Assembly: GCA_030611985.1 (NCBI GenBank)
Contig: JAUWOS010000001.1
Location: 1 to 48,043, forward strand
DNA length: 48,043 bases
Reading direction: 5' to 3'
DNA from: Desulfobacterales bacterium
GTDB lineage: Bacteria > Desulfobacterota > Desulfobacteria > Desulfobacterales > ETH-SRB1
The notes beneath the pieces are model-generated. The model was given only the letters and a program-made list of their open reading frames with translations, was not told the DNA's origin and ran no database searches. Within the stretch, counting starts at the first letter, position 1. Every line of letters begins with the position of its first letter. A program made the translations under genes and the position numbers. Shown in pieces: positions 3,928 to 37,860 of the stretch.

Positions 3928-3954
3928 ATTTTTTCAATCTCCTGTTTGTTTACG

Positions 3955-3977
3955 AATAAAAATTTCCCAAACGATTT
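3955..3977 (+). repeat. MITE-C terminal fragment
   Basis: AATAAAAATTTCCCAAACGATTT matches the MITE-C inverted repeat (25679-25699). It abuts the MITE-B solo terminus. Confidence 0.55.
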
Positions 3978-4023
3978 AGGAACGTGGACGAATTAACTTT
4001 CACAAGTAGGCGCATAGATTTGG
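3978..4023 (+). repeat. MITE-B solo terminus (beta type)
   Basis: AGGAACGTGGACGAATTAACTTTCACAAGTAGGCGCATAGATTTGG. Confidence 0.8.
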
Positions 4024-23783: not shown

Positions 23784-25676
23784 CTACATCCCTGTAAAAT
23801 CAAAACTTAATTTTGTTTGAAACTTTTCTATCCTTTTGAATATCTCTTTTAACATTGTCTGCTCTATGATGGAAAGCTTCTTCGGATTAACATAATTATT
23901 CGGCTTTTTATTTTCATCAATAACCGATGCGATCTGCCGTATAAATCTTAACTGCATCAGGAAGCTGTACGACTGTTCTATTTCATTATACTCCTGCCAG
24001 TGCAAAACTTTTTTCAAATAAAGTTGATGCAGCCTTTCCTGAGTATTAGTTTCTTCAATTTTGTTTTTTAGCGCATATATCCTTGCAAAATCAACAATTG
24101 GCGTCATGGCGCTCTTTATATCAAAAGAGTTCTGGTGTTCACCTTTTGACTCAACTAAAAAACTCCTGAAAAAACCTATCGGAGGTTTAAAGTGGAGGGC
24201 ATTTTCAGTTAAATGGCGAAAAAAACCCGCCCACCCGACAAGAGAATCAAAAAGATATTTGCGAAGCTCGGTTATAAGGTTCATATCTCCATACGCGCCG
24301 CGAAAATCAAAGAAAATACTTGATTTAAGCAAATCTTCAGGTTCCGCAGCATGAATCCATGCTGAAAAATATTTTTTCCAGGTGGATAACGGCCGGCACC
24401 ATTTGGGGTTTTTCGCCATTACATCCCCCTTGCAAAAACTATATCCTGCCTGATCAAGCCAGGAGCAAACCTTTTCTCCAAGTTTTAAAAAATAGCGCCC
24501 TGCCCTCTCTTCCGATTCCTTTGATACGTCTTCAAATATTATTGCATTATCTTGATCCGTCTTAAGTGTTTGCTCTTTTCTCCCCTCGCTTCCTATAATT
24601 ACAAATACAAATCCAGCCGGTGGCTGGCCCAATTCATCAATTGCAAACCCAATCAGTTTATTTAAAATAGCATCTGAAATTGTTGTTAAGAGCCTTGTCA
24701 CATTTTTTGCTTTAGCCCCGCTATTGATAAGTCCCTGGATTAATTCAGGCAACTGTCCGTGTTTGTCTGTGATTTTCTCAATGCTGTCTGCTGTGCTGAT
24801 CTCGCGAATAAGAAATAGCGGTGACTTTCCCTGAGCTGCAACCAGATCACTATTGGTCACAACGCCTACAACTTTTTTATCTGAATCTGTGACGGCAAGA
24901 TGTTTTATATTTCTCTTCATCATTGCTATAAGAGCTTCGAAAACAAGGGCATTGTCTGAAATTGTGCCTGAAAGATAAGACATTATATCGGAAACGGGCT
25001 TTTTAATATCAAGCCCTTTTGCAACAACTTTCTTTCTCAAATCAGTATCAGTAACTACGCCCACAAAATCTCCACCAGGTTTTTTTATAAAAATGGAACT
25101 GCATCTATTACTGCTCATGATTGCTGCTGCCTTCCGGATCGGAAAATCCGTGTCACAGAAAACCAGATCTCCAGTAAAAATACTTGCGACAGACCGGCTG
25201 AAAAATTGCGAAGATTCCTCCTTTGACCGGATACTCTTTGCAACAATTTCAGCATAAGACCTGTTAAGCATCCGCTTGCCGAAAGCATCGGTAAAATATT
25301 CGGAAAAAATCCCATGTTGTGAGCAAGTATGCAGAAAACTCTTTTTAGGCAGAATATAAAAATCCGAATCTTTATTTATTTTCAGCGTCCGAACAGCAAT
25401 TCCATCATTTAAAAGCATGGAAATTCCGCCATAGATATTTCCTTTGTTTAAGAATACATGAAGTGTTTTTTTACCGTTCTGTTCATAATACCGTTCAGCA
25501 GCGCCTTTTTGAATTATATAAAGACATTCAATCCTTGATCGCTCCTGAACAAACAAGATTGTATTTTCAGGATAATGAACCATAGAAACTTCAGAAGCTA
25601 TTTTCTTGAGTTCCTCTTCAGGAAGAAAAGAAAACGGAACCACACCAGACAAGAATTTAAAAGCCTTTTCGTTCAT
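23784..25676 (-). CDS. cyclic-nucleotide-binding plus CBS-pair plus DUF294 nucleotidyltransferase signal-transduction protein (COG2905 type)
   Basis: N-terminal cNMP-binding fold, CBS pair, pol-beta-type NTase motif IIGSEGRKEQTLKTDQDNAI, and a DUF294_C-like tail. 630 aa. Confidence 0.85.
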   Translation of the reverse strand: MNEKAFKFLSGVVPFSFLPEEELKKIASEVSMVHYPENTILFVQERSRIECLYIIQKGAAERYYEQNGKKTLHVFLNKGNIYGGISMLLNDGIAVRTLKINKDSDFYILPKKSFLHTCSQHGIFSEYFTDAFGKRMLNRSYAEIVAKSIRSKEESSQFFSRSVASIFTGDLVFCDTDFPIRKAAAIMSSNRCSSIFIKKPGGDFVGVVTDTDLRKKVVAKGLDIKKPVSDIMSYLSGTISDNALVFEALIAMMKRNIKHLAVTDSDKKVVGVVTNSDLVAAQGKSPLFLIREISTADSIEKITDKHGQLPELIQGLINSGAKAKNVTRLLTTISDAILNKLIGFAIDELGQPPAGFVFVIIGSEGRKEQTLKTDQDNAIIFEDVSKESEERAGRYFLKLGEKVCSWLDQAGYSFCKGDVMAKNPKWCRPLSTWKKYFSAWIHAAEPEDLLKSSIFFDFRGAYGDMNLITELRKYLFDSLVGWAGFFRHLTENALHFKPPIGFFRSFLVESKGEHQNSFDIKSAMTPIVDFARIYALKNKIEETNTQERLHQLYLKKVLHWQEYNEIEQSYSFLMQLRFIRQIASVIDENKKPNNYVNPKKLSIIEQTMLKEIFKRIEKFQTKLSFDFTGM

Positions 25677-25678
25677 TA

Positions 25679-25973
25679 ATAAAAGTTTCCCAAATGATTC
25701 GTTATGCTATAATGTTAATAGCTTAGAATTAAAAGTGAAAACTGACTATTGAAGATTGAAGATTGGTGGTACGCCTTCGGCGTGCTAATTGATAAACCAA
25801 AGTTTTTTAAAGATTATCCTCTTGTATATTAATGTTTTAAAGGGAATATAAATATATAAAAATAGCAGCATTCCTTAAATCTTAAATCTTAAATCTTAAA
25901 TCTTATATACCATACGCCTTCTGTGATTAATTCAAATAATTACAAGATGTTAAATCATTTGGGAAACTTTTAT
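25679..25973. mobile_element. MITE-C, full copy with a 5-bp target duplication (CATTA)
   Basis: Inverted repeats ATAAAAGTTTCCCAAATGATT (25679-25699) and AATCATTTGGGAAACTTTTAT (25953-25973). CATTA is at 25674-25678 and again at 25974-25978. Contains internal 7/8-mer tandem repeats and a CGCC-TTCG-GCG hairpin. Confidence 0.75.
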
Positions 25974-25981
25974 CATTAACT

Positions 25982-26097
25982 TTCCTTTCGCTCAATCCCT
26001 AAATCCCTAAATTCCTAAATCCCTAAATTCCTCAATTCCTCAATTCCTCAATTCCTAAATTCCTCAATTCCTAAATTTGTTTTAATTCCTAAATTCT
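25982..26097 (-). repeat. 8-nt phased GGA-rich array (12 GGA motifs on the minus strand)
   Basis: Minus strand reads ...TTTAGGAATTGAGGAATTTAGGAATTGAGGAATTGAGGAATTGAGGAATTTAGGGATTTAGG... Almost C-free. Starts right after the exonuclease-gene stop. Confidence 0.85.
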
Positions 26098-28269
26098 TCA
26101 ATATTCAGTACGACTATAATAAGTCTTTTGAGAAGCATTTCTTGCTTCTTTTAGAGTATAAATACCTTTTTTTGCCAGAAGCGGAATCAATTTTAGAAAT
26201 ATTTCACCTGTCGCAATAGCATCGCCAAGAGCAGTATGCCTGCCGACAACACTTATACCCAAACGTCCGGCAATTGCTTCCAGGTTGTGATTATTATGGG
26301 CTGGATGCACAACTGCTGAAATAAGCATGGTATCTATCACAGGATTTATAAATTTTACACCTGTTTTTGCTTCTTTTATTTGCAGCATACGCATATCAAA
26401 AGCTGCATTATGGGCAACAAGAACGGTATCCTCAACAAATCGATAAAACATTGGCAATACATTATCAATAGTTGGCTGGCCTTCGAGCATTTCAGACCGA
26501 ATCCCATGAACCCGTATTGATTCATATGGTAAAGAACGCTGCGGATCAATAAACTGATTAAAGAGTTCATCACGCAACAGACGGCAATTTACAATCCGAA
26601 CGGCTCCGATGGAAATGATTTCGTCCCCTCCTCCTGGATTCAATCCTGTTGTTTCAGTATCAAAAACTGTAAACGTCAGTTCGGTTAACGGGCGACTGTC
26701 AAGTTCAGGAATCTGACCGGGCTGGCTGAACAGGTCAAAATCATAAAACTCCGGACGGCTTTCAGGTAAAATCGTTATACTTCTTGTGCTAACATGTTCA
26801 GGAGTTTCAGCAACGGGCAACAATAAGCGAAGATATGATTTATCTTTTGATTTTTTGTGCGAATAAGACCATATTTCCGCTTTATGATAATCAATCACTT
26901 CTTTCAATGTTAATGAAATCCGCTCCTTTTCAACAATTAAAACCTGTTCATTCCACTTTCGTAAGGTTTCGGTTTTTATCGGCATGCCCTTCCAGACAAG
27001 ATCAATATTTACAAATTTTCCCTTTCTCTCCGGTTCACATGTAAATTCAGATTCTCCTGTTTCATTCTTTAATTCATTCAGTACAAAGAGCATAGATAGA
27101 ATTATGGAATAGCTGTCAACCTTAATCCATATCTCCTCATCACAATTTTCAAAATTAATAAGGATGTTCAGCTTCTCTCCGGCCTTTCTTATGATCGATT
27201 CGACAATATCCTTGCCTGGCATCGGAACAAGAGGCCAATATGTTTTAATACGGCTGGAATAATCTGAAACAGTTTTGTCAAGAACATTACCTATACTTAT
27301 GGATTCCTTATTTATAATTTTACCAAATGAGTTCAGTTGTTTCTTGTCCATATCAGGATGCTCAAGCATAACTTCATTAGCGGCCTTGATACCGGCCAGG
27401 GAAGAACGAATACCAACTGCAAGAGATTGCAATATAAAATCCACATTACCATCTTTTTCAAGTTGTTGTGTAATATCGTAAAATATAAGTATAAATCCTG
27501 TAAACCGATTCAGATGGCTTAAAATTGGCGCGGCTTCGACGCGTAAAAACATGTTTCCCTTATCTATAATAACAAAATGCGAAACTATATTCTGCTCCTT
27601 TCGCTTTAATTTTTCAGCTATTTCATCAAGTGCATGCACAATAAGATTTTTGTCAATTACGCCGAATACACTGCGGCCAAGACCTATAAATCGTCCTGAT
27701 TCGGATAGAGGTTCAGAGTCAATGGAATTGTTATTATTACTTGCAAGGAATTGCTTGACACGCTTGTTATATAAAAGAATCCGTCCTTCTGCATTACAAA
27801 CAAGCACACCTTCAGGCAGCTCGGACATAATGGCCGCCAGTATGTTTTTCTCCTCTTCAGATTCCGCTCTTGCAAAATAAATCTTTTTCTCCACATTGTT
27901 CTGCAAATCTTCATAACGATCTGCCGCCTCATTTACAATTTGAGCAAGGCGTATAATATCTTTGCTTCCTTCAATCTTAATACGGTGTGACGGATTTACC
28001 GAATTTATTAAAGTAGCCTCTTCCGCAAGTCTGCCCATCGGAAGAATACAGGTGTGGAAAATTCCATCTAATGCAAATCCCAATCCGGCCAACAGGAGAA
28101 AAACAGCGCTGAAAATATATACGAAATGTTGTTTGATGATATTGATTAAAAGAGACTTTTCTTCCGGCGACAGATGATGCCAGAACAAAACAGCAAGGAT
28201 GGAAATAATAATTAAGGTGATTGAAACAGAAACGGCTGCAAACCACCAGAATTTATTTTTTGGATTCAT
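26098..28269 (-). CDS. membrane sensor-like protein (2 TM, HAMP, PAS, degenerate histidine-kinase-like module) fused to a DnaQ/DEDDh 3'-5' exonuclease domain
   Basis: Exo motifs FDTETTG, HNAAFDMRML, HTALGDAIATGE. N-terminal TM pair, HAMP-like and PAS-like (AIMSELPEGVLVCNAEGRILLYN) segments. H-box-like LAVGIRSSLAGIK has no His. Confidence 0.8.
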   Translation of the reverse strand: MNPKNKFWWFAAVSVSITLIIISILAVLFWHHLSPEEKSLLINIIKQHFVYIFSAVFLLLAGLGFALDGIFHTCILPMGRLAEEATLINSVNPSHRIKIEGSKDIIRLAQIVNEAADRYEDLQNNVEKKIYFARAESEEEKNILAAIMSELPEGVLVCNAEGRILLYNKRVKQFLASNNNNSIDSEPLSESGRFIGLGRSVFGVIDKNLIVHALDEIAEKLKRKEQNIVSHFVIIDKGNMFLRVEAAPILSHLNRFTGFILIFYDITQQLEKDGNVDFILQSLAVGIRSSLAGIKAANEVMLEHPDMDKKQLNSFGKIINKESISIGNVLDKTVSDYSSRIKTYWPLVPMPGKDIVESIIRKAGEKLNILINFENCDEEIWIKVDSYSIILSMLFVLNELKNETGESEFTCEPERKGKFVNIDLVWKGMPIKTETLRKWNEQVLIVEKERISLTLKEVIDYHKAEIWSYSHKKSKDKSYLRLLLPVAETPEHVSTRSITILPESRPEFYDFDLFSQPGQIPELDSRPLTELTFTVFDTETTGLNPGGGDEIISIGAVRIVNCRLLRDELFNQFIDPQRSLPYESIRVHGIRSEMLEGQPTIDNVLPMFYRFVEDTVLVAHNAAFDMRMLQIKEAKTGVKFINPVIDTMLISAVVHPAHNNHNLEAIAGRLGISVVGRHTALGDAIATGEIFLKLIPLLAKKGIYTLKEARNASQKTYYSRTEY

Positions 28270-37796: not shown

Positions 37797-37860
37797 CCCG
37801 CACCGAAGGTGCGCTAATTTAAATAATTATAAAATGTTAAGTCGTTTGGGAAACTTTTAT
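37797..37860. repeat. MITE-C half copy (hairpin plus right terminus)
   Basis: GCACCGAAGGTGCGCTAATTTAAATAATTATAAAATGTTAAGTCGTTTGGGAAACTTTTAT aligns with 25912-25973. Confidence 0.65.

What the first reader, a model, noticed from the sequence alone, without database searches (positions are those of the whole stretch)
25674..25978. MITE-C inserted exactly between the Shine-Dalgarno sequence and the ATG of the DUF294 gene, duplicating TAATG
A 295-bp element with 21-bp inverted repeats (ATAAAAGTTTCCCAAATGATT / AATCATTTGGGAAACTTTTAT) is flanked by the direct repeat CATTA at 25674-25678 and 25974-25978.

On the coding strand this repeat is TAATG, which includes the start codon. Removing the element and one repeat restores GCGAAAGGAAAGTTAATGAACGAAAAG, a canonical AGGA-N6-ATG initiation region.

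After insertion the real ATG (25676) sits behind the element's own terminus, TTTGGGAAACTTTTATTAATG. The GGGAAA in that terminus may substitute as an SD. The orphaned SD plus ATG copy now heads an 8-codon ORF (MIKVSQMI*).

This is a clean example of a MITE rewiring translation initiation. It is also direct proof that this family is mobile and makes a 5-bp target duplication.
Basis: seen in the sequence. Interest (0 to 1): 0.6.

Follow-up and report, generated by a model that had tools for sequence, protein, structure and literature searches.

The report
Small transposon splits ribosome site from start
A 293-base non-coding jumping element landed between the ribosome-binding site and the start codon of a gene in an uncultured cold-seep sulfate reducer; this is an ordinary kind of element in an unusually precise and instructive position.

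Summary
Window 25679-25973 carries perfect inverted ends, flanked by CATTA repeats, and abuts the ATG of a cNMP-CBS-DUF294 gene.

The element belongs to a multi-copy family: 63 end matches in this 2.2-Mb genome, and more in some sister genomes.

Closely related cold-seep populations and one sister genome carry the same site uninterrupted (…AAAGGAAAATCAATGAACG… and …GAGGGAATTAATGAACG…). It is therefore a true insertion.

One correction is needed. The outermost base of each "inverted repeat" varies together with the flank. The duplication is therefore 7 bp (TCATTAA; TTAATGA on the coding strand), the element is 293 bp, and its inverted ends are 20 nt. Thirteen copies have exact 7-bp duplications and three have 8 bp.

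The ends, the 7-8-bp duplication and the AT-rich targets fit the ISPepr1 subgroup of the IS4 family. A 2.45-kb element with an identical 19-nt end and a YREK-type DDE transposase was found elsewhere. Deleted derivatives of it sit in sister genomes. No copy is present in this genome.

The effect on expression is inferred only. Predicted Shine-Dalgarno pairing falls from -9.8 to -4.2 kcal/mol. In a read-through mRNA the 20 nt before the AUG are locked in the inverted-end stem.

Verdict: a new member of a known kind (a bacterial MITE), of modest interest.

The parts
25680..25972 (.). MITE-C element proper (293 bp, non-coding). Its orientation is such that element position 1 abuts the DUF294 start.
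   Evidence: Inverted ends. The family has 78 BLAST segments in the genome. Boundaries were set by the 7-bp duplications across copies.
25680..25699 (+). Left inverted end, TAAAAGTTTCCCAAATGATT. Its reverse complement forms the 3' arm of the stem in the DUF294 mRNA and contains GGGAAA (25686-25691).
   Evidence: It fits 7 of the 8 conserved positions of the ISPepr1 end consensus YT-AA-YTT---A (PMC2266710).
25953..25972 (+). Right inverted end, AATCATTTGGGAAACTTTTA.
25673..25679 (.). Gene-proximal copy of the 7-bp target duplication, TCATTAA (coding strand TTAATGA). It holds the real ATG (25676-25674) and the first base of codon 2.
25973..25979 (.). Distal copy of the 7-bp target duplication. 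It holds the orphan ATG (25976-25974).
25980..25988 (-). Orphaned Shine-Dalgarno sequence AAAGGAAAG (AGGA at 25983-25986). It now lies 300 nt upstream of the real ATG.
   Evidence: Predicted pairing with the canonical anti-SD is -9.8 kcal/mol. It is conserved in the uninterrupted alleles X10/X19 and G007.
25950..25976 (-). 8-codon upstream ORF MIKVSQMI*, headed by the orphan SD and ATG. It covers exactly the 5' arm of the inverted-end stem.
   Evidence: Read. Stem position.
23784..25676 (-). Intact cNMP-binding/CBS/DUF294/DUF294_C gene (630 aa).
   Evidence: It aligns over residues 1-630 to relatives at up to 86% identity.
26098..28269 (-). Upstream gene with a C-terminal RNase_T (DEDDh) exonuclease domain. 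It is syntenic with DUF294 in relatives, so the two are probably co-transcribed.
25990..26097 (.). Array of 8-base repeats (coding strand GGAATTGA / GGAATTTA) between the upstream stop codon and the orphan SD.
   Evidence: An earlier finding, e1-3319149, covers it.
25764..25806 (+). Internal hairpin module TTGGTGGTACGCCTTCGGCGTGCTAATTGATAAACCAAAGTTTTTT, preceded by GATTGAA heptamers. It is a separate dispersed repeat embedded in the element.
   Evidence: 28 copies in the genome. It is 95-97% identical in genera that lack the element's ends. Fold.
25705..25713 (+). TGCTATAAT, an extended -10-like motif that points into the element and away from DUF294.
   Evidence: Read. The consensus scan did not list it, and the scan's promoter-like sites in this region are not more frequent than in shuffled sequence.

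Best explanation
**Shown.** A 293-bp non-autonomous transposon (a MITE) inserted into the AT-rich 7-mer TTAATGA. This 7-mer spans the last three spacer bases, the ATG and the first base of codon 2 of the DUF294 gene. The element is mobilised in trans by an IS4-family, ISPepr1-like DDE transposase. Staggered cutting 7 bp apart followed by gap repair duplicated that 7-mer. As a result the gene keeps its own ATG directly behind the element, while its Shine-Dalgarno sequence and a second ATG are stranded 300 nt upstream. The insertion is recent on the scale of this lineage. Strains that carry it are at least 99.4% identical in the gene. Lineages about 97% and 95% identical have the site uninterrupted.

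**Inferred.**
- On the exonuclease-DUF294 operon transcript, the stranded SD and ATG drive an 8-codon upstream ORF.
- The two inverted ends pair into a stem of about 23 bp that buries the 20 nt before the real AUG.
- SD-dependent initiation of DUF294 is therefore probably strongly reduced.
- Any remaining expression would depend on one of three things: opening of the stem by ribosomes translating the upstream ORF, RNase III-type cleavage of the stem, or a transcription start inside the element.
For: **Anatomy.**

**Family.**
- 63 end matches in the genome.
- The exact 15-mer of the end occurs 43 times here and 30, 10, 5 and 3 times in four sister genomes. It occurs 0 times in 17 other genomes of the family, and 0 times for the reversed control.

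**Target duplication.**
- 13 of 31 copies have perfect duplications, against 9 of 930 mismatched-flank controls.
- All 13 are exact 7-mers next to the core TAAAAG…CTTTTA, and 3 further copies have 8-mers.
- The oriented target consensus is TTWATAA.

**Uninterrupted alleles.**
- Contigs from runs X10 and X19 (5 differences in 171 nt) continue …CATT|GATTTTCCTTTCGC.
- Contigs from runs X8 and X9 (9 differences in 301 nt) read …CATTAATTCCCTCAAATC, which has TTAATGA once.
- Sister genome G007 reads GGAAAATCAATGTACGAAAAGGC.

**Both junctions seen independently.** Contigs from four runs in three studies span each junction.

**Transposase link.**
- L151:1714-4166 has an end identical over 19 of 19 nt. 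It carries a DDE_Tnp_1 transposase with the motif YKLRWTIECFFRTGK.
- Deletion derivatives lie next to the same ends in G002 and G033.
- The ISPepr1 subgroup has 7-8-bp duplications, ends YT-AA-YTT---A and AT-rich targets (PMC2266710).

**Translation.**
- Predicted SD pairing is -9.8 kcal/mol at spacing 5 before the insertion and -4.2 at spacing 10 after it.
- P(unpaired) for positions -20 to -1 falls from 0.61 to 0.01.
- The stem appears in the MFE and centroid folds.
Against: - No transcript or ribosome data exist for this locus. The single RNA run touches only the gene's 3' end and repeats.
- The genome has no 16S rRNA gene, so the anti-SD sequence is assumed to be canonical.
- The ORF is intact, so either it is still expressed or too little time has passed for it to decay. 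The substitution counts cannot distinguish these.
- No transposase of this type is in the 90%-complete genome.
- The L151 element has an in-frame stop and no clean duplication. It is 2.45 kb, larger than the 1.5-1.6 kb typical of ISPepr1.
- The nearest other copy of the element is only about 90-93% identical, so the source copy is unknown.
- No single public contig spans the whole element. Each junction is seen on a separate contig.
Confidence: 0.85

Rival explanations
1. The insertion is functionally neutral or even activating. Transcription starts inside the element, or the stem is processed. The AUG is then used efficiently with the weak GGGAAA site, or with no Shine-Dalgarno at all.
For: - The gene is intact in all strains that carry the element.
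- With a 5' end inside the element, the AUG is predicted to be largely open: P(unpaired) 0.38-0.89.
- A TTTAAA-17-GATAAT site on the gene's strand lies at 25841-25813.
- MITE-borne promoters and RNase III cleavage at inverted ends are documented for Correia elements (PMC10969869).
Against: - Promoter-like sites in the region are no more frequent than in shuffled sequence: 5 found against 4.3 expected.
- GGGAAA pairs weakly (-4.2 kcal/mol) and lies 10 nt from the AUG.
- There are no expression data.
Confidence: 0.25
2. The element has been co-opted as a translational switch. Translation of the 8-codon upstream ORF melts the inverted-end stem and so licenses initiation at the real AUG. DUF294 output would then be coupled to ribosome availability.
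For: - The upstream ORF covers exactly the 5' arm of the stem and has an optimal SD.
- Both inverted ends are perfectly complementary in this copy, whereas other copies differ at 2-3 inner positions.
Against: - This geometry follows automatically from any insertion that duplicates a start codon.
- No other locus conserves such an arrangement. The rtcA copy has a different reading frame into the element.
- The insertion is young, so there has been no time for selection to be visible.
Confidence: 0.08
3. The 293 bp are ancestral at this site, and the uninterrupted alleles arose by precise deletion between the 7-bp repeats.
For: Short direct repeats can mediate precise deletions. Only 30 nt of each uninterrupted allele beyond the junction could be read.
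Against: - Three different uninterrupted alleles exist in lineages that are more divergent than the carriers.
- Two of them read CATTG rather than the duplicated CATTA.
- The element family is absent from genus g4, which includes G007.
- The same family shows 7-bp duplications at 12 other unrelated sites.
Confidence: 0.03
4. The arrangement is an assembly artefact. A repeat was wrongly joined into the contig at this point.
For: The genome is a 184-contig metagenome bin that is rich in repeats. Public contigs break inside the element.
Against: - Contigs from four runs cross the gene-to-element junction: 25575-25728 with 0 differences in X1 and X4, and 25522-25737 in X2.
- Contigs also cross the element-to-upstream-flank junction, 25924-26023.
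- Both junctions carry the same 7-mer, as expected from one simple insertion.
Confidence: 0.02

Closest known systems
IS4 family, subgroup ISPepr1 (De Palmenaer, Siguier and Mahillon 2008, PMC2266710)
   Same: - Target duplications of 7-8 bp.
- Preference for AT-rich targets.
- End consensus YT-AA-YTT---A, matched at 7 of 8 conserved positions by TAAAAGTTTCCCA.
- The candidate partner's transposase has the full Y-(2)-R-(3)-E-(6)-K motif that separates IS4 proper from IS701, ISH3 and IS1634.
   Different: - The element here is a 293-bp non-coding derivative or hitch-hiker that shares only the terminal 19-20 nt with the candidate partner.
- That partner is 2.45 kb, not 1.5-1.6 kb.
- Its transposase scores below NCBIfam's IS4 cut-offs.
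- Position 2 of the end is A, not T.
Correia elements (CREE) of Neisseria
   Same: Both are small multi-copy inverted-repeat elements found mostly just upstream of genes. Both are co-transcribed into mRNAs, where their inverted ends form a stem. For Correia elements, RNase III cleavage at that stem and element-borne promoters are documented (PMC10969869).
   Different: - Correia elements are 100-155 bp, duplicate TA and occur in Neisseria (from my own knowledge).
- There is no sequence similarity to this element.
- None of the expression effects has been tested for this element.
Other bacterial MITEs: MITEAba12, RUP/BOX/SPRITE, ERIC, Coxiella QMITEs
   Same: They share the same general make-up: inverted ends, a target duplication, no transposase, many copies and a modular interior.
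   Different: - The parent IS families and duplication lengths differ.
- The 2024 review of prokaryotic MITE effects lists promoters, IHF sites, RNase cleavage, gene disruption, sRNAs and terminators.
- A term search of that review for 'Shine-Dalgarno', 'ribosome binding' and 'start codon' gave no occurrence.
IS701 family (for example ISAba11)
   Same: Its transposase is a related DDE fold; DDE_5 and IS701 models give weak hits.
   Different: - Once the boundaries are corrected, the duplication is 7-8 bp.
[quoted passage not shown]
- This element is therefore not filed under IS701.

Membership tests
Prokaryotic MITE | Small size and no transposase-coding capacity | tested here: met
   The element is 293 bp. 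No ORF of 60 aa or more lies within it. There is no Rfam match.
Prokaryotic MITE | Terminal inverted repeats | tested here: met
Prokaryotic MITE | Target-site duplication of constant length across copies | tested here: met
   13 exact 7-mers and 3 exact 8-mers among 32 elements (31 short paired copies plus the 2.45-kb L151 element). Mismatched-flank control rate 1%, P about 1e-18.
Prokaryotic MITE | Multiple dispersed copies | tested here: met
   63 end matches and 14 paired copies of 130-437 bp in this genome. Copies also occur in four sister genomes.
Prokaryotic MITE | Filled and empty alleles of the same site (evidence of movement) | tested here: met
   Filled in X1-X4. Uninterrupted in X8, X9, X10, X19 and G007. 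A second locus, rtcA, is filled here and uninterrupted in 6 sister genomes.
Prokaryotic MITE | Ends shared with an autonomous IS that can supply the transposase | tested here: inconclusive
   L151 has a 19/19 identical left end and a 16/19 right end around a DDE transposase. However, that copy has an in-frame stop, lies in another bin, and has no counterpart in this genome. Deleted derivatives are present in G002 and G033.
IS4 family, ISPepr1 subgroup (mobilising enzyme) | Direct repeats of 7-8 bp | tested here: met
   compared with Table 1 of PMC2266710.
IS4 family, ISPepr1 subgroup (mobilising enzyme) | End consensus YT-AA-YTT---A | tested here: met
   TAAAAGTTTCCCA matches 7 of the 8 conserved positions; position 2 is A.
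IS4 family, ISPepr1 subgroup (mobilising enzyme) | DDE transposase with a complete YREK motif | tested here: met
   L151 ORF2 contains YKLRWTIECFFRTGK, which is Y-(2)-R-(3)-E-(6)-K. Pfam DDE_Tnp_1 E = 4e-12.
IS4 family, ISPepr1 subgroup (mobilising enzyme) | Curated family model score above cut-off; typical size 1500-1600 bp | tested here: not met
   The best NCBIfam hit, transpos_IS4_4, scores 96.5 bits against a cut-off of 250. The element is 2453 bp. It is therefore IS4-family-like, and subgroup membership is not proven.
IS701 family | 4-bp duplication (5 bp for ISAba11); YREK tyrosine mostly absent | tested here: not met
   The duplication is 7-8 bp and the YREK motif is complete. Definitions from PMC2266710 and PMC7885321.

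The most novel reading that the evidence does not exclude
Insertions of this family at gene 5' ends are tolerated specifically when the 7-bp duplication regenerates an ATG. This is seen twice in 14 full copies: DUF294 and rtcA. The resulting architecture is orphan SD, short upstream ORF, 20-bp stem, then the real AUG. It could act as a ready-made translational switch in which ribosomes on the upstream ORF open the stem. This would be a MITE-generated regulator of translation initiation, a mode not listed among known MITE effects.
Probability: 0.08. Interest if true: 0.55.

Novelty: new member of a known kind. Interest (0 to 1): 0.33.

Why it matters
**A natural experiment on initiation.** The locus offers filled and empty alleles of one ribosome-binding site in near-identical wild strains of an uncultured syntrophic sulfate reducer. 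Both forms are available in public data. This allows a direct test of how much a bacterial start codon depends on its Shine-Dalgarno sequence when 293 structured bases are placed between them.

**Genome annotation.** The finding defines a MITE family and its probable IS4-type parent in the Eth-SRB1/SEEP-SRB-like family. This helps annotation of these repeat-laden genomes.

**A method point.** A target-duplication length, and therefore the inferred transposase family, should be set from many copies. From a single copy the outer duplicated bases were mistaken for part of the inverted repeat.

**Limits.** The kind of element and its likely effects are already well known, so the general significance is modest.

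Tried and rejected
1. **IS1595-family transposase as the partner.** The transposase at C38:29656-30624, beside an element end, looked like the autonomous partner. It has its own ends (AATGCCTATTGA…) and an 8-bp duplication, TATAACAA. It is nested inside a copy of the element and is not the partner.

2. **Partner search in this genome.** I examined ORFs next to solo ends and ran an all-against-all search for multi-copy proteins. Only housekeeping paralogues turned up, plus gatB sitting behind a truncated element end. tblastn with the L151 transposase found nothing.

3. **IS701 or IS1634 as the parent.** This was suggested by the 5-bp and 5-6-bp readings. I dropped it after the boundary correction and the YREK check.

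4. **Exact-pattern scans for the empty site.** Scans of genome contigs and metagenome contigs gave no match.

5. **Rfam on 25550-26150.** No match at E up to 1.

6. **Promoter and terminator scan.** Nothing above the shuffle expectation.

7. **RNA evidence.** One RNA run touches only the gene's 3' end and repeat parts.

8. **Synonymous versus non-synonymous changes.** Carrier strain X2 shows 3 synonymous and 7 non-synonymous changes, 8 of the 10 changed codons in one 28-nt tract. The listed sites of the non-carrier X8 show 12 and 13. These are too few and too clustered to say anything about selection after the insertion.

9. **Orientation of the internal hairpin module relative to neighbouring genes.** No clear bias: 13 against 12 for upstream genes, 9 against 16 for downstream genes.
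Full report
**What is in the sequence**

Window 25679-25973 has two perfectly complementary 21-nt arms, flanked by CATTA at 25674-25678 and 25974-25978.

To the left lies a 630-aa ORF, 23784-25676 on the minus strand. It has cNMP-binding, tandem CBS, DUF294 and DUF294_C domains, and its ATG is 2 nt from the element.

To the right come an array of 8-base repeats and then the stop codon of a 723-aa gene with a C-terminal RNase_T exonuclease domain.

On the coding strand the sequence reads …GCGAAAGGAAAGTTAATG[ATAAAAGTTTCCC…GGGAAACTTTTAT]TAATGAACGAAAAG….

The end motif has 4 matches in the window against 0.03 expected by chance.

**Organism and family of repeats**

The window is contig C82 of a 2.2-Mb, 184-contig, 40.7% G+C genome bin that is 90% complete. 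Its relatives are cold-seep and marine-sediment Desulfobacterales, in the family that holds 'Eth-SRB1'.

BLAST of the element against the genome gives 78 segments on about 50 contigs. There are 63 matches to the 19-nt end with up to 3 mismatches, and 14 short paired copies of 130-437 bp.

The copies share the ends and about 50-80 nt next to them, but differ in internal modules.

The exact 15-mer of the end occurs:
- 43 times in this genome;
- 30, 10, 5 and 3 times in four sister genomes of one other genus;
- once in three further genomes;
- never in the other 17 genomes of the family;
- never for the reversed control pattern.

**Target duplication and the boundary correction**

Pairing left and right flanks of different copies gives 9 matches in 930 (1%), so P is about 1e-18.

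However, the outermost base of each 'inverted repeat' is not constant. It is G in C97, T in C36 and L131, and A at the right end of C149, C151, C157 and L104. In every such case it equals the base just beyond the 5-mer on the other side.

I therefore re-cut the element as TAAAAG…CTTTTA. With that cut, all 13 copies have an exact 7-bp direct repeat. Three copies that looked imperfect have exact 8-bp repeats.

At this locus the duplication is TCATTAA (25673-25679 and 25973-25979; TTAATGA on the coding strand). The element is 25680-25972 (293 bp) and the inverted ends are 20 nt. Oriented on the element, the targets give T-T-W-A-T-A-A.

**Proof of insertion: uninterrupted alleles**

Filled alleles:
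- Public contigs from four cold-seep runs in three studies cross the gene-to-element junction. These are 25575-25728 with 0 differences in X1 and X4, and 25522-25737 with 3 differences in X2.
- Contigs also cross the element-to-flank junction, 25924-26023.

Uninterrupted alleles:
- In runs X10 and X19, a contig with 5 differences in 171 nt of the gene's 5' end leaves the window at 25677. It continues GATTTTCCTTTCGCTTAATTGCG, which on the coding strand is …AAGCGAAAGGAAAATCAATGAACG….
- In runs X8 and X9, a contig with 9 differences in 301 nt continues after 25680 with TCCCTCAAATCATCC, which is …TTTGAGGGAATTAATGAACG…. This allele has the 7-mer TTAATGA once.
- The sister genome G007 (86% amino-acid identity) reads GATTGAAAAAAGGAAAATCAATGTACGAAAAGGC.

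Carrier strains are at least 99.4% identical over the gene: X2 has 10 differences in 1763 nt. The X8 non-carrier is 94.6% identical. The insertion is therefore younger than these splits.

Other relatives have a different 5' end, with a conserved 21-codon N-terminal extension (MDKLMTDNN…). They are not informative for this site.

**The enzyme behind the element**

The genome holds no plausible partner. An IS1595-type IS beside one element end turned out to be nested in a copy of the element. It has its own ends and an 8-bp duplication.

A scan of one genome per species for the 18-nt end found, besides the sister genomes and scattered single hits of the number expected by chance, one informative contig:
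- It is a contig binned as Dehalococcoidales (L151).
- There, a 19/19 identical end and a 16/19 inverted end lie 2453 bp apart.
- They enclose one reading frame, broken by a single TAG, that matches DDE_Tnp_1 at E = 4e-12.
- The frame also gives below-cut-off matches to IS4 and IS701 models.

Its sequence YKLRWTIECFFRTGK is a complete Y-(2)-R-(3)-E-(6)-K motif.

Supporting traces of this IS type:
- An 809-bp element in sister genome G002 has the same ends. It is 79% identical to 425 nt of the L151 interior, so it is a deletion derivative.
- Sister genome G033 holds the 3' part of the IS, ending in the same inverted end.
- Fragments about 86% identical to the transposase gene occur in seep runs X3 and X8.

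Table 1 of De Palmenaer et al. 2008 gives for the ISPepr1 subgroup of the IS4 family: ends YT-AA-YTT---A, YREK present, direct repeats of 7-8 bp, and AT-rich targets (PMC2266710). The core end TAAAAGTTTCCCA fits 7 of the 8 conserved positions.

I conclude that the element is mobilised by an IS4-family, ISPepr1-like transposase. Subgroup membership is not proven, because the size and the model scores do not fit. My earlier idea of an IS701-type enzyme rested on the 5-bp reading and is withdrawn.

**Consequence for the gene (inferred)**

- Shine-Dalgarno pairing. Using a canonical anti-SD tail, the upstream 20-25 nt pair at -9.8 kcal/mol with 5-nt spacing before the insertion, and at -4.2 kcal/mol with 10-nt spacing after it. 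The genome has no 16S gene to check the tail.
- Operon context. The exonuclease and DUF294 genes are adjacent in relatives, so a read-through operon transcript is likely.
- Structure. Folded from the upstream stop codon, the inverted ends form a stem of about 23 bp. The mean probability of being unpaired at -20 to -1 drops from 0.61 to 0.01, while the AUG itself stays about half open.
- Upstream ORF. The 8-codon ORF sits exactly on the 5' arm of the stem. Ribosomes translating it would open the stem.
- Possible cleavage. A 20-bp RNA duplex is also a plausible RNase III substrate, as shown for Correia elements (PMC10969869).
- Promoters. Promoter-like sites are no more frequent than in shuffled sequence.
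- RNA data. The only RNA run is uninformative.

My best estimate is a marked drop in DUF294 translation with some residual expression. I hold this functional part at roughly even odds. The structural part (what the element is and how it got there) I hold at about 0.9.

**A second case**

Copy C157:1600-1959 lies in the same orientation directly before an ATG of rtcA, and its duplication (TTATGAT on the coding strand) also contains that ATG.

Six sister genomes have the site uninterrupted. They start rtcA seven codons further upstream (MRDKRGVLVLIDG…). That insertion is therefore inside the 5' end of the coding sequence, and the duplicated ATG supplies a new start for a protein shortened by seven residues.

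Two of 14 full copies thus survive at a gene's 5' end with a regenerated ATG. This may reflect the AT-rich target preference together with selection against other insertions. The sample is too small to say more.

**Novelty**

This is a newly described MITE family in an uncultured lineage, with a probable IS4-type parent. It is a new member of a known kind.

A term search of a 2024 review of prokaryotic MITE effects found no mention of 'Shine-Dalgarno', 'ribosome binding' or 'start codon', so separation of an SD from its start codon is not among the effects it lists. It is nonetheless an expected outcome of random insertion into AT-rich DNA. Interest is modest.

Noticed in passing
G000 contig C157:1600-1959 (not in the window): A second copy of the element sits directly before an ATG of rtcA, and its 7-bp duplication (TTATGAT) contains that ATG. 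Six sister genomes are uninterrupted at this site and start rtcA seven codons upstream. This insertion therefore truncates the N-terminus and supplies a new start.
   Followed up: yes
G000 contig C29:3192-3254 (not in the window): A truncated 63-nt left end of the element abuts the ATG of gatB. The gene's whole ribosome-binding region is therefore element-derived (…TTAGGATCAAGATTGAAAATG).
   Followed up: partly
G000 contig C38:29640-30680 (not in the window): An IS1595-family IS (322-aa transposase, ends AATGCCTATTGA…, 8-bp duplication TATAACAA) is nested inside a copy of the element. A 67%-identical second copy lies at C148:7620-8680.
   Followed up: yes
window 25741-25806 (+): The module consists of GATTGAA/GATTTAA heptamer runs (2-7 units), the hairpin GGTACGCC-TTC-GGCGTGC, then TAATTGATAAACCAAAGTTTTTT. 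It occurs 28 times in the genome and is 95-97% identical in genera that lack the element's ends. On the plus strand it looks terminator-like and lies about 50 nt after a TGCTATAAT motif, so it could mark a small RNA. It shows no orientation bias relative to genes.
   Followed up: partly
window 25677-25740 compared with loci L001, L002, L003, L060 (about 3935-4000): Most relatives encode a conserved 21-residue N-terminal extension (MDKLMTDNNYDHKPIKVSGES) before the MVSQAFKF… start. This genome, G007:C263 and the X10 and X8 alleles lack it and have a stop codon 5-6 codons upstream. G007 carries both gene versions (C263 and C432).
   Followed up: partly
window 25119-25146: Carrier strains in runs X2 and X4 differ from the window at 9 positions within 28 nt (7 changed codons, 5 of them amino-acid changes), but at almost no other place in the gene. 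This looks like a short recombination tract.
   Followed up: no
L151:1712-1769: The first 57 nt of the candidate parent IS (the end plus 38 subterminal nt) match several contigs in seep runs X1-X3 at about 86-91%, without the transposase. This suggests further short derivatives of the same IS in these communities.
   Followed up: no
window 3956-3976 and 37815-37860: Two further solo or partial ends of the same element family lie in the window, each with 2 mismatches to the end motif.
   Followed up: no
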